NCBI GenBank assembly: GCA_964518475.1
Contig: CAZFGR010000001.1
Location: 256,001-320,000, forward strand
Direction of reading: 5' to 3'
Origin: an uncultured Nitrososphaerota archaeon
Lineage (GTDB): Archaea > Asgardarchaeota > Njordarchaeia > Njordarchaeales > Njordarchaeaceae
DNA length: 64,000 bases
The notes beneath the pieces are model-generated. The model searched no databases, was not told the origin of the DNA, and worked only from the letters and a program-made list of their open reading frames with translations. Positions within the stretch are counted from its first letter, which is position 1, and each line of letters opens with the position of its first letter. The translations under genes and the position numbers were made by a program. Below, in pieces: positions 8,402 through 52,592 of this stretch.

Positions 8402-8458
8402 TCGATGATGATAAGGCATTTGTGGGATAATAATGACCGTTGCTCCCGCATCTGAGAG
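8402..8458 (+). ncRNA. box C/D guide sRNA (23S H69/H71 region targets)
   Basis: C ATGATGA 8405-8411, guide TAAGGCATTTGT, degenerate D' GGGA, C' ATAATGA, guide GTTGCTCCCGCAT, D CTGA 8452-8455. Confidence 0.82.
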
Positions 8459-8498
8459 CATTATCTCAATTGCGTAATAAATCAGATGACTATAAAAC

Positions 8499-9764
8499 TC
8501 ACGCGTATCTTAGTATAGCTGCTATTCCTTTAAATGCGTTTAGAAACATCTCTCCTATTTCACCTTCACTTGAAATGAATTCGACCTCAGCTCCAATATT
8601 TTTCGCTTTATTCATCAAATATTCTACAACATCATCACTAATAACTTCTACCTTAGGAGAAGAGCCGTATTTAGAGCACAATTTACTGGCTCTTTCTTCG
8701 ACTTTTTTCCTTTCAAAATCACTGGTTACCAAAACTTCTATCGGATCAATGTCCACTCTTTCACATGAAACTCTAACCACATAACCTCGAAGCTCCTCAT
8801 GAATTATTAATTTCTCTATTTTCCCTTCGTTTAATGCTTTATTAACTTCTTGAAAACCGTAAGCTACAAGCTCCGGGGATGTGGCAGCTAGCCTCATTAA
8901 TTCATCCACAATCTCCTTTTCTCGGATATATTTGCTCTCTTTTATTAATTCTCTTGCTTCATAAAGAGCTTCTCTTAAGCCTTCCTCTCCTAGATATTGC
9001 GTCGTCACTTTTCCTAAGATCTTTTGTCGCAATCTATAGTCTAGATACTCGCTTTCTAGGAAATCTTCTTTGGCGAAACCAGGTCCTCCTATAATTAGTC
9101 CCTTAATGTCTAGGTCAAGAAATACTTTGTTAGCTTCCTCTGCTACCTTCTTTAGAAATTCCTTATAAGCTCCTTCAATTAATCGCTCAAATCTCCTAGC
9201 TGATTGTCCTCCCTTACTATGTTTGGGAGGAACATAACCAGAAATATTTTTGATAACTTCTATCCTTGTACCATCTAATAAACCAATCGTAGCTTCATCA
9301 CGCTCTAGTAATATGATCCCATACTTCTCTCCTTCTTCAAGCATTTCCTTTAATACACTCGTATCAAATCGAGAATCACAGAGATACTTCTTCACACGCA
9401 CTGGTTTGGGAGGAACAATTTCATAATACTCTAATTTACCCTCTTGAGTAATACCAGCATAGATAATCAGTCCTGTCTCTGGTATTTCTTTCCAATATCT
9501 CAACCTACTTTGAATGCTGGATAGCGCAGCTTGCACATTTTTCCTAGTGGTTCTGGACTTTATTCTTGCTGCCGTGGCTAGTTCCTGTCTTATCAATTCT
9601 GTCACTTCACCCATGGGTGTGCCAGGAGGAATTATTAAAGAGACTAATGTAGTGGAGTGCCCATCAATCGCCGTCTTTTTATCAAGTTCCTCTATGAGCC
9701 TTTTTAATTCAAATTTCTGTCTTTTCTCCATATGGTGTTCTTCTTTGCTGCTTTCATTAGCCAT
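8499..9764 (-). CDS. prf1: peptide chain release factor aRF1
   Basis: GGQSARRF, YLCDSRF and C-terminal GIAAILRY; GGAGG SD. Confidence 0.96.
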   Translation of the reverse strand: MANESSKEEHHMEKRQKFELKRLIEELDKKTAIDGHSTTLVSLIIPPGTPMGEVTELIRQELATAARIKSRTTRKNVQAALSSIQSRLRYWKEIPETGLIIYAGITQEGKLEYYEIVPPKPVRVKKYLCDSRFDTSVLKEMLEEGEKYGIILLERDEATIGLLDGTRIEVIKNISGYVPPKHSKGGQSARRFERLIEGAYKEFLKKVAEEANKVFLDLDIKGLIIGGPGFAKEDFLESEYLDYRLRQKILGKVTTQYLGEEGLREALYEARELIKESKYIREKEIVDELMRLAATSPELVAYGFQEVNKALNEGKIEKLIIHEELRGYVVRVSCERVDIDPIEVLVTSDFERKKVEERASKLCSKYGSSPKVEVISDDVVEYLMNKAKNIGAEVEFISSEGEIGEMFLNAFKGIAAILRYA

Positions 9765-10017
9765 TTCTAGTCCTCCATAATAGCATTTATCTCATGATAA
9801 AAGTCTTGTCTAGATTTGCGAGCAGATTTAAAATTAAGCATTCAATCGGTGACTTCAATAGCAATTTTCCTTATATTTTCCCGCGACATAAGTCTGAGAG
9901 GAATTTCCCAAATAGCGTTGGAAAGTATTACTTATAAGCGACTATTACTATAAGTTATAATATTGTAAAGTTTTGCTTGCAGATTAATAAGTTAATGTTA
10001 GTTAGTGGTTAGAGTGG

Positions 10018-10620
10018 GTGGAAATTATGACTGATGACAAGAAGAAAAGGAAAGATGATTATTGGGAGGAGGATCCATTCGAACGTTTTCTAAGACGTTT
10101 CTTTGGCTCACGCTCTCCTTTTGAGGAATTCTTCCGTGAATTTAATGATATGCTACGTAGATTCATGAGAGAGATCGAATCTTTTGAATACCCCTTTGAG
10201 AAAGACGTATTCAAAGAGAAGAAGGGACCTATAAAGAGTTACGTATACGGATTCAGCATTACAATCGGCCCCGACGGCGTCCCTAGAATAAAGGAATTTG
10301 GCAATATAAGACCCACAGCTGTTGGTGTAGTGACTCGCGAAGAATGGGAACCACTTTCTACAGTATATTCCGAGGATGATAAAATTAGGGTAATAATAGA
10401 CCTTCCAGGGGCTAAGAAAGAGTCTATAAAAATTAATGCATCAGAGACTGATGTAGAGGTTAAAGCTGAAGCTGGAGACCGAAAATACTATAAGCGAATT
10501 CAACTGCCAGAAGAAGTTATTCCCGAGAGTGCTAAGGCTAGGTACAATAATGGTATCCTAGAAATTACCTTTGAAAAGAAGAAAAAAGGCAAAAAGACTA
10601 CTGAGATCCCAGTAGAATAG
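10018..10620 (+). CDS. small heat shock protein Hsp20
   Basis: YGFSITIGPDG..IKEFGN, DLPG, AKARYNNGILEI, and IPVE C-terminal IXI motif. Confidence 0.92.
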   Translation: MEIMTDDKKKRKDDYWEEDPFERFLRRFFGSRSPFEEFFREFNDMLRRFMREIESFEYPFEKDVFKEKKGPIKSYVYGFSITIGPDGVPRIKEFGNIRPTAVGVVTREEWEPLSTVYSEDDKIRVIIDLPGAKKESIKINASETDVEVKAEAGDRKYYKRIQLPEEVIPESAKARYNNGILEITFEKKKKGKKTTEIPVE

Positions 10621-10857
10621 CGTCAAAAATCATTACTTCAAAGATAATTCCAATAGTCTTTGCTACAAAAAGTTTTCAAGCAAAAATAATTATTCATAGA
10701 ATTTTTGCTTCGACAGCCCTATCTATGCACTTTATCTCTTCTCACTAAAATATTTATGTATAATCACTTGATGTTGGATGTTGAAATAGTTTACACATAT
10801 TTATATTTTAGAAGACTAGAGTTGTGTTTAAACTAATTGTGTTGGAGGGTACTTTTC

Positions 10858-50978: not shown

Positions 50979-51175
50979 ACATAGCAATCATCATAGCATC
51001 GTCCTATTTTATAAAAGGTTCTCCCTAGAGCACTAATATCCTTATATTAGAGATCTTCTTCCGCCGATATATTGATTAGTGCATGATAGCACAATCATAT
51101 AATGAGCTACACTGTAATGATGTGTTCAGTTGTAAGTGCTTATATGCATAGCAGTGGCTAATAAGTGATTGCTCT

Positions 51176-52078
51176 ATGAAGAAATTCTTCCTACAAATAT
51201 TTTTTAGAGAACAAGGATCTCGTGGCACGCTGCTCTACAAAGTGTTTTCTTATGATAGAGATTTACTAGCAGAGGGTCTTTATCCAGTAGGGTTAGATAA
51301 TATTAGTTATAATTACACTCCTAATTATCTAGAGTGGATTCACATCGTTAAGACCCCTTTTATTAATCCCGCAGGTGGGTGCGGAGCTACTAGCTATAAT
51401 AAATGTAAAAGATGCCCACTAGGATCACAAGAGGATCTAACAGTATGTGGTAGAGCACTTGTATATCTGCGTCCCTTTCCACATAAACGCGGAAAATTCC
51501 TGATTAAAGTAGGTGTGGGAGCAGACCTATTAAGACCTAGTTCCCAATCTTCTCCTTTCGCTATAATCTCCACCGATATAACCAGAAGAAAAGCCCTTTT
51601 TCTGGAAGAGTCTTTATCCAATATTTTTAATTTCGTAGTAAGGAATCCACGTGGAAGATTATTATGGTCTGATATTATTGCGAGAGGATTATGGAATGGA
51701 TTTGAGGAAGCTTCTTATCTCCTAGAGATATTACCGCAGATGTATGATAAAGTAAGAAATAACTACCCAGCAATTTACGCTTTATTAACCGATCCAGTAA
51801 TATTTATGCCCACTAAACATTTCTCCAGTCCTTTACCGACATGGATAGAGAAATTACCCATTAGAGATATAAGGAAATACGTTATTCGAGAACCAAATGC
51901 GATATACGGGGAAGTCGTAGCAAATCGGGGAGGATTACTAGTTATTGAGCATGAGGATGGTTTTTGGATATTCGAACCTAATGAACGGAGAATTTATGCC
52001 TTAGAGAAAATAGTTGGTCTTCAGGGAGAATCTACGATTTCCCACTTTGTTAAAAGAAAGATGATACTAAAGGAATAG
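51176..52078 (+). CDS. Cys-rich hypothetical protein, DUF2797-like
   Basis: CG....KCKRC.......C...VYL.......KVGV pattern. Confidence 0.5.
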   Translation: MKKFFLQIFFREQGSRGTLLYKVFSYDRDLLAEGLYPVGLDNISYNYTPNYLEWIHIVKTPFINPAGGCGATSYNKCKRCPLGSQEDLTVCGRALVYLRPFPHKRGKFLIKVGVGADLLRPSSQSSPFAIISTDITRRKALFLEESLSNIFNFVVRNPRGRLLWSDIIARGLWNGFEEASYLLEILPQMYDKVRNNYPAIYALLTDPVIFMPTKHFSSPLPTWIEKLPIRDIRKYVIREPNAIYGEVVANRGGLLVIEHEDGFWIFEPNERRIYALEKIVGLQGESTISHFVKRKMILKE

Positions 52079-52086
52079 GTGAGAGT

Positions 52087-52497
52087 ATGGTCTTATTTTA
52101 TGTGAGAAGGGAATTTCTTGATGCCTTGATTAAGGGAGAGAAAAAGGCAGAATTGCGCGTGGGAGAAAGCTGGATAAAAGTTGCTGAAAAAATTAGAACT
52201 GGAAGATTAAAACCTATAGCTATATTTAAGTGGAGAAATAGAGTTGTGGTAAGAGAGATTTACGATATCAAAGTTTACCCAAGTATTAGAAAAGCTCTAG
52301 CTAACGGCCGTTGGAGATTACTCGGCTTAAAAGCTAAAACATACCCAGAAGCCATCGATGAAGTTAGAAAATTGTATCACAAGGGTGCTAAAGGACATGC
52401 TGTCATGTTTTTTCTCCGAAAACCTAAGAGTTTCTCTAGAGAAGACGCTTTAGCCCTAGTGAAGCAAGTTGATGAAAATGCAGAATTAGAGAATTGA
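52087..52497 (+). CDS. ASCH/PUA-fold domain protein
   Basis: EFLDALIKGEKKAELR motif. Confidence 0.75.
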   Translation: MVLFYVRREFLDALIKGEKKAELRVGESWIKVAEKIRTGRLKPIAIFKWRNRVVVREIYDIKVYPSIRKALANGRWRLLGLKAKTYPEAIDEVRKLYHKGAKGHAVMFFLRKPKSFSREDALALVKQVDENAELEN

Positions 52498-52528
52498 AGT
52501 TAGTGATCTTTTATGCCATTCTCATTTC

Positions 52529-52592
52529 ATATCCGAGTGGTGCACGTTCAGCATCCGCGAAACGCGTCAGTGCAGGTTAGTCTCTTCATCTA
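52529..52592 (-). ncRNA. box C/D guide sRNA targeting 16S helix 34 (copy C)
   Basis: Minus strand: C ATGAAGA (52589-52583), guide GACTAACCTGCA, D' CTGA, cgcg-ttt-cgcg hairpin, C' ATGCTGA, guide ACGTGCACCACT, D CGGA (52535-52532). Confidence 0.85.

What the first reader, a model, noticed from the sequence alone, without database searches (positions are those of the whole stretch)
8402..52592. Box C/D guide set aimed at rRNA sites methylated in eukaryotes
Seen in sequence: eight C/D sRNAs. Applying the N+5 rule against conserved rRNA sequence from memory gives six matches to known eukaryotic sites. The 29092 RNA points at the second A of H69 GUAAC (yeast 25S Am2256, snR63) and the G of GCCUUG (Gm2288, snR75). 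The 8405 D' guide points at the third A of CCAAAU (Am2281, snR13; D' box assignment uncertain). The 50969 D' guide points at the U equivalent to 18S Um1269 (snR55). The 52583 RNA points at equivalents of both Gm1271 (snR40) and Gm1428 (snR56). In a probable Asgard genome this could expose ancestral dual-guide precursors of single-guide eukaryotic snoRNAs (inference). Some of these sites may also be methylated in other archaea.
Basis: partly seen in the sequence, partly recalled or inferred. Interest (0 to 1): 0.85.

Follow-up and report, generated by a model that had tools for sequence, protein, structure and literature searches.

The report
Njordarchaeal box C/D rRNA methylation guides
The window carries eight genuine small guide RNAs that aim ribose methylation at ribosomal RNA in a heat-adapted Asgard (Njord) archaeon. 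Several point at spots that eukaryotes also methylate, but the same guides are common in non-Asgard archaea, so this is an ordinary set.

Summary
The observation largely holds. I find seven canonical, intergenic box C/D sRNAs inside 8402-52592 and an eighth at 6667-6717. All eight have homologues in congeneric genomes: boxes and guides are conserved, loops and flanks are not. The MAG is a Njordarchaeota (Asgard) genome. It encodes fibrillarin, Nop5 and L7Ae but has no rRNA, so targets were mapped on same-genus rRNA.

The Gm1428 match is weak: 9 of 10 core pairs, with a conserved A·C mismatch.

The evolutionary reading fails its own refutation test. The 29092 double guide has the same two targets as Ignicoccus sR91. 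Its pattern occurs in 30 of 101 genomes sampled from the class of a Desulfurococcales MAG, against 13 of 400 Asgard genomes. The 8405 RNA matches Sulfolobus sR125 and Ignicoccus sR109, and the helix 34 guides also occur in Thermoproteota. Arabidopsis U15 pairs these sites differently.

Verdict: new members of known archaeal guide families, not an Asgard-specific link. Earlier follow-ups in this scan reached the same verdict for the same double guide on other Asgard DNA.

The parts
6667..6717 (-). Layout: C ATGATGA, D' CCGA, C' TGAGGA, D CTGA. The D' guide GTAAACAGTCGA points at 23S E. coli C1774 (10 contiguous pairs). The D guide GTGGAGCCCTCG points at about E. coli G1983.
   Evidence: Homologues in G002, G004, G006 and G012 conserve boxes and the D' guide. 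Intergenic.
8405..8455 (+). Box C/D sRNA. Layout: C ATGATGA, degenerate D' GGGA, C' like ATGACC, D CTGA. The D' guide TAAGGCATTTGT points at the third A of CCAAAU (E. coli A1938, yeast Am2281 equivalent). The D guide TTGCTCCCGCAT points at E. coli G2123, or alternatively at G1906 in the H69 stem.
   Evidence: The G013 homologue, from another family of the same order, has canonical D' CGGA and C' ATGAAGA with the same guides. The target pair equals that of Sac sR125 and Iho sR109 (A2204 + G2172).
25336..25387 (-). Box C/D sRNA. Layout: C ATGATGA, D' CGGA, C' ATGAAGA, D CTGA. Both guides hit the 16S 5' domain. D' TAACCCCACCTAC points at E. coli G255 (12 of 13 WC pairs). D CGTGCCCCTCTC points at a G about 60 nt downstream (11 of 12 WC pairs).
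   Evidence: Intergenic.
29092..29142 (+). Box C/D sRNA. Layout: C ATGATGA, degenerate D' GAGA, C' like TGATCG, D CTGA. The D' guide TACCTGGCAAGT points at the G of CCUUG (E. coli G1945, yeast Gm2288 equivalent). The D guide ATCACAGTTAAT points at the second A of GUAAC in the H69 loop (E. coli A1913, yeast Am2256 equivalent).
   Evidence: Six congeners keep both guides. The double guide matches Iho sR91. The pattern is found in 13 of 400 Asgard genomes and 30 of 101 genomes of the Desulfurococcales-MAG class, with no hits to the reversed control.
29693..29747 (+). Box C/D sRNA with orphan guides. Layout: C ATGATGA, D' CCAA, C' TGACGA, D CTGA. No rRNA or tRNA match is better than shuffled guides.
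   Evidence: The G002 homologue keeps the D' guide and has a canonical CTGA D' box.
50762..50818 (-). Box C/D sRNA with four canonical boxes. The D' guide TGTGTACCACCT points at 16S E. coli G1050 (yeast G1270 equivalent; the site most often predicted in Crenarchaeota). The D guide CCTGCCGTAGCG points at E. coli A1191 on the other strand of helix 34, with a mismatch at position 4.
50923..50975 (-). Box C/D sRNA, a paralogue of the previous one. Layout: C ATGATGA, D' CGGA, C' TGATGA, D CTGA. The D' guide GTGCACCACCTC pairs 12 of 12 with GAGGUGGUGCAC and points at E. coli U1049 (yeast Um1269 equivalent). The D guide GCTTGCCGTAGG points at E. coli C1192 (weak: 8 WC pairs plus 2 GU).
   Evidence: 0 of 500 shuffles reach the D' score. 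Rfam gives only sub-threshold hits to sR11, sR1 and sR35 here.
52532..52589 (-). Box C/D sRNA. Layout: C ATGAAGA, D' CTGA, a hairpin loop, C' ATGCTGA, D CGGA. The D guide ACGTGCACCACT points at 16S E. coli 1051 (G in archaea; yeast Gm1271 equivalent). The D' guide GACTAACCTGCA points at the first G of CAGGUC (E. coli 1197; yeast Gm1428 equivalent), with a conserved A·C mismatch at position 8.
   Evidence: Five congeners keep both guides and the CGGA D box. No SSU with the matching U was found in metagenome contigs. Pca sR32 has the matching guide without the mismatch.

Best explanation
These are eight ordinary archaeal box C/D sRNAs of a thermophile-type Njordarchaeota genome.

Mechanism, from established knowledge of the class. 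Each RNA folds into a C/D kink-turn and a C'/D' kink-loop. It binds L7Ae, a Nop5 dimer and two fibrillarins. Its two roughly 12-nt guides pair with nascent rRNA, so that the nucleotide opposite the fifth guide position upstream of D or D' is 2'-O-methylated.

Targets. Two RNAs (8405 and 29092) cover the H69-H71 subunit-interface stretch of 23S rRNA. Three paralogous RNAs (50818, 50975 and 52589) each pair with both strands of 16S helix 34. One targets the 16S 5' domain, one targets 23S domain IV, and one is an orphan. Double guides on neighbouring or opposite strands probably also act as folding chaperones.

Why the sites coincide with eukaryotic Nm sites. They are old, functionally constrained hotspots targeted by guide families spread across Thermoproteota and Asgard archaea. 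They are not a feature peculiar to Asgards.

Status of the steps. Shown: the RNA genes, their conservation, their complementarity to rRNA, their wide distribution and the presence of the protein machinery. Inferred: expression, RNP assembly and actual methylation.
For: - Canonical four-box layout with 12-13 nt guides, in intergenic positions.
- Genome-wide excess of such layouts: 93 against 24 in the control.
- Homologues in congeners and in the wider order conserve boxes and guides only.
- Guide and target covary. Njord guides read GTGCACCACC against Njord rRNA GGUGGUGCAC. Thermoproteota guides read ATGCACCTCC against GGAGGUGCAU.
- Fibrillarin, Nop5 and two L7Ae-family genes are present.
- rRNA GC is 61-64% against 37% for the genome, which fits a thermophile with many guides.
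- The same double guides are catalogued in I. hospitalis, S. acidocaldarius and P. calidifontis.
- The 29092-type pattern occurs in 30 of 101 genomes of the Desulfurococcales-MAG class and 13 of 400 Asgard genomes, with no control hits.
- Dennis et al. 2015 describe H68-71 as methylation hotspots in archaea.
Against: - No rRNA of this organism is available, so all pairings use a congener's rRNA.
- With a simple additive score, single guides beat shuffled guides only modestly. Four rRNA-directed or orphan guide matches are at chance level: 52583 D', 50818 D, 50975 D and 29693.
- D' and C' boxes of 8405 and 29092 are degenerate.
- No RNA data exist for expression.
- Rfam has no family that reaches threshold here.
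Confidence: 0.88

Rival explanations
1. The set is a specifically Asgard, eukaryote-like guide repertoire, and its dual guides are the direct ancestors of the single-guide snoRNAs snR63, snR75, snR13, snR55, snR40 and snR56.
For: - All six sites are methylated across eukaryotes, and P. abyssi has no equivalent listed for any of them (PMC11542601 Table 2).
- U1025 and G1027 are absent from the seven species of Dennis 2015.
- Guides in the U1049 register occur in several Asgard lineages.
Against: - Four of the six sites, and two complete double guides, are already catalogued in Crenarchaeota.
- The A1913 + G1945 double guide is far more frequent in the Desulfurococcales-MAG class than in Asgards.
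- Registers 0 and 2 of the helix 34 guide also occur in Thermoproteota.
- Most Asgard genomes sampled lack the exact pattern.
- Plant U15 pairs G2289 with A2282, a combination not seen in this window. No guide pairing is shared between the domains.
Confidence: 0.08
2. Some of the claimed guide-target pairs do not lead to methylation. Candidates are 52583 D' (Gm1428 equivalent) and the D guides of 50818 and 50975. These would be orphan guides, chaperone-only contacts or chance matches. This is compatible with the best explanation for the RNAs themselves.
For: - Their scores are not above shuffled guides.
- The A·C mismatch at position 8 of the 52583 D' guide is conserved in five species.
- No SSU carrying the compensating U was found.
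- 50818 D has a mismatch next to the target nucleotide.
Against: - All three still pass the field's usual rule of one mismatch, two GU pairs and nine pairs (Dennis 2015 methods).
- All three land on helix 34, the helix targeted by the other guide of the same RNA.
- Pca sR32 carries the perfect version of the 52583 D' guide.
- The base before ACGG varies among Asgard SSUs, so this organism's rRNA may pair better.
Confidence: 0.35
3. The motifs are chance box-like sequences in AT-rich intergenic DNA and not RNA genes.
For: The reversed-genome control still yields 24 four-box layouts genome-wide. Two such hits in the window fall inside ORFs.
Against: All eight have homologues that conserve boxes and guides in other species. 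One guide pairs 12 of 12, with 0 of 500 shuffles reaching that score. The family-level pattern searches had empty controls.
Confidence: 0.02

Closest known systems
Ignicoccus hospitalis C/D box sRNA sR91 (Dennis et al. 2015, PMC4644070, Additional file 1)
   Same: Same architecture and same two targets in the same positions as the 29092 RNA. The D' guide ..CGGCAAG.. points at 23S G2211 (E. coli G1945). The D guide ..AGAGTTACG points at A2179 (E. coli A1913).
   Different: The window RNA has degenerate D' (GAGA) and C' boxes. Its D guide has a mismatch at position 2 (TTAAT instead of TTACT). The host is an Asgard, not a crenarchaeon.
Sulfolobus acidocaldarius sR125 and Ignicoccus hospitalis sR109 (same source)
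   Same: They carry the guide AAGGCATTTGT aimed at 23S A2204 (third A of CCAAAU). Their second guide is aimed at G2172 in the 5' strand of H69. This is the same target pair as the 8405 RNA.
   Different: The guides are in swapped positions: D in Sac and Iho, D' here. In G000 and G013 the second guide fits E. coli G2123 (GCGGGAGCAA) slightly better than G1906. In G001 it fits the H69 site.
Pyrobaculum calidifontis sR32, and the 16S G1026 guides (Sac sR6, Pca sR49)
   Same: The Pca sR32 D guide TACTGACCTGCG targets 16S G1184, the site of the 52583 D' guide. G1026 (E. coli G1050) is the site of the 50818 D' guide.
   Different: The window RNAs combine the 5' and 3' strands of helix 34 in one RNA. 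They add the neighbouring registers U1049 and 1051, and they carry an A·C mismatch in the G1184 guide.
Eukaryotic snoRNAs snR63/SNORD46, snR13 and snR75 (plant U15), snR55/U33, snR40, snR56
   Same: Same RNP chemistry and the same methylated nucleotides by alignment.
   Different: The guide combinations differ: AtU15 guides Gm2289 and Am2282 together, and the yeast guides are single. These are longer RNAs with no detectable sequence homology outside the target-dictated guides. Orthology is not shown.

Membership tests
Archaeal box C/D sRNA (L7Ae-Nop5-fibrillarin methylation guide) | Terminal C box (RUGAUGA) and D box (CUGA), 50-60 nt apart | tested here: met
   All eight have this. Seven have ATGATGA and one has ATGAAGA. 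D is CTGA in seven and CGGA in one, and the CGGA is conserved in five species.
Archaeal box C/D sRNA (L7Ae-Nop5-fibrillarin methylation guide) | Internal D' and C' boxes that leave two guides of about 12 nt | tested here: met
   Spacing is 12-13 nt in all eight. The D' and C' boxes of 8405 and 29092 are degenerate, but homologues place them at the same positions.
Archaeal box C/D sRNA (L7Ae-Nop5-fibrillarin methylation guide) | Guide complementarity of at least 9 bp to rRNA or tRNA, with a Watson-Crick pair at N+5 | tested here: met
   Met for 13 of 16 guides on congeneric rRNA under the Dennis 2015 rule. Both guides of 29693 are orphans. Four matches are statistically no better than shuffles. 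The organism's own rRNA is unavailable.
Archaeal box C/D sRNA (L7Ae-Nop5-fibrillarin methylation guide) | Genome encodes L7Ae, Nop5 and fibrillarin | tested here: met
Archaeal box C/D sRNA (L7Ae-Nop5-fibrillarin methylation guide) | Expressed as a stable 50-70 nt RNA, and the target is 2'-O-methylated | not testable with these tools
   No RNA run holds the locus.
Iho sR91-type double guide (23S A1913 + G1945) | D' guide on CCUUGCC (N+5 at G1945) and D guide on GUAACU (N+5 at A1913) in one RNA | tested here: met
Orthologue or ancestor of specific eukaryotic snoRNAs (snR63, snR75, snR13, snR55, snR40, snR56) | A guide combination or non-guide sequence shared with the snoRNA, and a distribution closer to Asgards than to other archaea | tested here: not met
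   Pairings differ from AtU15 and from the yeast single guides. The family is commoner in the Desulfurococcales-MAG class than in Asgards. The only similarity is that imposed by the shared target.

The most novel reading that the evidence does not exclude
The Njordarchaeal set preserves a core of rRNA ribose methylations (H69 A1913, A1938 and G1945; helix 34 U1049, 1051 and 1197) that was already RNA-guided in the common ancestor of Thermoproteota, Asgards and eukaryotes. On this reading the pan-eukaryotic sites Am2256, Am2281, Gm2288, Um1269, Gm1271 and Gm1428 descend from these archaeal guide families by shuffling of guide halves, not by convergence on hotspots.
Probability: 0.2. Interest if true: 0.55.

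Novelty: new member of a known kind. Interest (0 to 1): 0.27.

Why it matters
The result adds a curated set of eight C/D guides, out of roughly 70 or more genome-wide, for a Njordarchaeales lineage. I found no paper in the library searched that catalogues Asgard C/D sRNAs.

It shows that several pan-eukaryotic methylation sites are targeted by guide families shared between Thermoproteota and Asgards. That is useful background for the origin of snoRNAs. It does not single out Asgards and does not reveal a new mechanism.

Tried and rejected
- Rfam, gathering threshold: no hit. At the E-value threshold, only sub-threshold sR11, sR1 and sR35 matches at 50921-50998.
- rRNA in the own MAG: none found.
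- Metagenome scan for an SSU with ACGGCAGGUUAGU, which would remove the 52583 D' mismatch: 18 hits, none of them rRNA.
- Laying contigs of four metagenome runs on the congeneric SSU, to read this organism's helix 34: the contigs were too fragmented and mixed. No variant was listed at the two positions of interest. Inconclusive.
- RNA runs: no RNA holder listed.
- Search of the own genome for alternative perfect targets of the weak or orphan guides: only the sRNA genes themselves and coding-sequence chance hits.
- A 9-mer guide-centred scan of the window: as noisy as its reversed control (139 against 110), so discarded.
- Candidates at 15739 and 38603: rejected because they lie inside long ORFs.
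- A global test of overlap between all predicted sites of this genome and all yeast or human Nm sites: not done, because no eukaryotic rRNA sequence is available in the tools.
- My recalled yeast sequence around Um1269, Gm1271 and Gm1428 fits the published positions of psi-1290, psi-1415 and ac4C1280, but it was not verified with a tool.

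
Full report
**What is there**

The window (37% GC) has no tRNA and no Rfam hit at gathering threshold. A four-box architecture scan finds canonical box C/D layouts at eight places:
- 6667-6717 (-)
- 8405-8455 (+)
- 25336-25387 (-)
- 29092-29142 (+)
- 29693-29747 (+)
- 50762-50818 (-)
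- 50923-50975 (-)
- 52532-52589 (-)

All eight are intergenic or overlap only gene ends. Two weaker motif hits, at 15739 and 38603, lie inside long ORFs and are rejected. Genome-wide the same scan gives 93 candidates against 24 in a reversed-genome control. Earlier first-reader notes list many more such RNAs on other pieces of this genome.

**Organism and machinery**

Nop5 neighbours place the MAG in Njordarchaeota, an Asgard lineage. The best match is 87% identical, to a Njordarchaeota MAG. Fibrillarin and Nop5 are adjacent genes, and two L7Ae-family genes are present. The MAG is 91% complete with 121 contigs and contains no rRNA. I therefore used the 23S rRNA of two congeners (G005, G006), a partial 16S rRNA of G005, and rRNAs of a same-order genome (G010). 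Congeneric rRNA is 61-64% GC against 37% for the genome, a thermophile signature that fits a large guide repertoire.

**Are the RNAs real?**

DNA searches in the order return short islands of similarity exactly over the sRNAs. Boxes and guides are conserved, while loops and flanks are free to vary.
- The 29092 RNA is found in six species of the genus.
- The 52589 RNA is found in five species.
- The 8405 RNA is found in another family of the order (G013), there with canonical D' CGGA and C' ATGAAGA boxes. This fixes the uncertain D' register of 8405.
- The 6717, 50818, 50975 and 29693 RNAs also have homologues.

Guides also covary with lineage-specific rRNA. Njord 16S rRNA reads GGUGGUGCAC where Thermoproteota read GGAGGUGCAU. 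The guides read GTGCACCACC and ATGCACCTCC respectively.

**Targets**

Positions below are in E. coli numbering, from a MAFFT alignment with MG1655 rRNA.

| RNA | Guide | Target | Pairing or note |
|---|---|---|---|
| 29092 | D | 23S A1913 (second A of GUAAC, H69 loop) | 9 contiguous pairs |
| 29092 | D' | 23S G1945 | 10 WC + 1 GU |
| 8405 | D' | 23S A1938 (third A of CCAAAU) | 10 WC + 1 GU |
| 8405 | D | 23S G2123, or G1906 | |
| 50975 | D' | 16S U1049 | 12 of 12 |
| 50975 | D | 16S C1192 | |
| 50818 | D' | 16S G1050 | |
| 50818 | D | 16S A1191 | |
| 52589 | D | 16S 1051 | |
| 52589 | D' | 16S 1197 | |
| 25387 | D', D | 16S G255 and a G about 60 nt downstream | |
| 6717 | D', D | 23S C1774 and G1983 | |
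| 29693 | both | none | orphan |

The three RNAs at 50.7-52.6 kb each address both strands of helix 34. This fits the double-guide chaperone idea of Dennis et al..

Caveats on the pairings:
- With a simple additive score, single guides beat shuffled guides only modestly.
- Only 50975 D' is unmatched by any of 500 shuffles.
- 52583 D', 50818 D and 50975 D are at chance level.
- The 52583 D' guide has an A·C mismatch at position 8 that is conserved in five species. All Asgard SSUs examined have C there, and no SSU with U was found in metagenome contigs.
- All of these matches still pass the field's usual rule of one mismatch and two GU pairs.

**Equivalence to eukaryotic sites**

Yeast Am2256 (snR63), Am2280 and Am2281 (snR13), Gm2288 (snR75), Um1269 (snR55), Gm1271 (snR40) and Gm1428 (snR56) are confirmed sites. 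All are conserved in human and plants. A2256 is the extrahelical H69 adenosine that corresponds to bacterial A1913.

On the LSU, the spacings of 25 and 32 nt between the three predicted nucleotides equal yeast 2256 to 2281 to 2288 and E. coli 1913 to 1938 to 1945. The LSU equivalences are therefore solid.

For the SSU, U, G, G followed 11 nt later by a CCG motif matches Um1269, G1270, Gm1271 and ac4C1280. The Gm1428 equivalence (first G of CAGGUC) rests on my recollection of the yeast sequence.

**Is this special to Asgards? No.**

The supplement of Dennis et al. 2015 lists the following:
- Iho sR91, with D' guide TAACTCGGCAAG pointing at 23S G2211 and D guide ATCAGAGTTACG pointing at A2179. 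This is the same double guide as the 29092 RNA.
- Sac sR125 and Iho sR109, with A2204 + G2172. This is the target pair of the 8405 RNA.
- Pca sR32, with 16S G1184. This is the 52583 D' site.
- Four predictions at 16S G1026. This is the 50818 D' site.

That paper already calls H68-71 a methylation hotspot around A1912.

A pattern for the 29092-type double guide (C box, GGCAA, AGTTANN, CTGA) matches 13 of 400 Asgard genomes. Nine of these are in Njordarchaeales, and one of the remaining four looks like a chance match. The same pattern matches 30 of 101 genomes sampled from the class of a Desulfurococcales MAG, and one of those hits is the exact Iho sR91 sequence. The reversed control pattern had no hits in either set. 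The Asgard count is a lower bound, because variants with drifted boxes escape the pattern. Earlier follow-ups of this scan report the same double guide in Hodarchaeales, Thor-type and Loki-type genomes.

For helix 34, the Desulfurococcales-MAG class sample shows only the G1050 register. A phylum-wide Thermoproteota sample also contains the registers for 1049 (G634, G510) and 1051 (G570, G526). The Asgard sample has them in the Njord genus and a few other lineages. Counted as independent lineages, the two phyla do not differ clearly.

Finally, eukaryotes are not uniformly single-guide at these sites. Arabidopsis U15 guides Gm2289 and Am2282 together, a pairing different from both archaeal pairings. 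There is no shared guide combination that would argue for direct descent.

**Verdict**

The locus set is a genuine, well-conserved group of archaeal box C/D methylation guides. It consists of new members of families already catalogued in Crenarchaeota. The coincidence with pan-eukaryotic Nm sites is real, but it reflects ancient, widely shared targeting of functional hotspots: subunit bridge B2a and H69-H71, and helix 34 of the small-subunit head. It is not an Asgard-specific link.

A deep common origin of these methylations remains possible but is not shown here (about 0.2). Testing it needs the enrichment analysis and wet-lab data listed under next steps.

Noticed in passing
window 50762-52589: Three paralogous sRNAs within 1.9 kb each pair one guide with the 5' strand of 16S helix 34 (E. 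coli 1049-1051) and the other with its 3' strand (1191-1197). Together they would methylate three consecutive nucleotides (U, G, G). A fourth helix 34 guide (TGTGCACCACCA + CTGA, G1050 register) lies outside the window at G000:C1:336453.
   Followed up: partly
window 29693-29747: A canonical C/D sRNA whose two guides match no rRNA or tRNA better than chance. The D' guide GCCCGCGAGGAT is identical in G002, which suggests a conserved but unidentified target, perhaps in a variable rRNA region missing from the available sequences.
   Followed up: partly
window 8405-8455 and homologues (L120, L123): The D guide of this family drifts between two similar targets, GCGGGAGCAA (E. coli G2123) and GGCGGGAGUAAC (H69 stem, G1906). 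G000 and G013 fit the first better, and G001 fits the second.
   Followed up: partly
L009 and L071 (16S of G005 and G010): Njordarchaeales 16S rRNA reads GGUGCACGGCC where the other Asgard SSUs examined here, the archaea aligned by Dennis et al. 2015 and E. coli have GCAUGGC. The guides carry the compensating G.
   Followed up: partly
I did not examine it.
   Followed up: no
window 25336-25387: The D guide of this sRNA points at the G of GGAGAG*GGG in the 16S 5' domain. From recalled yeast sequence this is next to, not at, the Am420 equivalent. Not verified.
   Followed up: no
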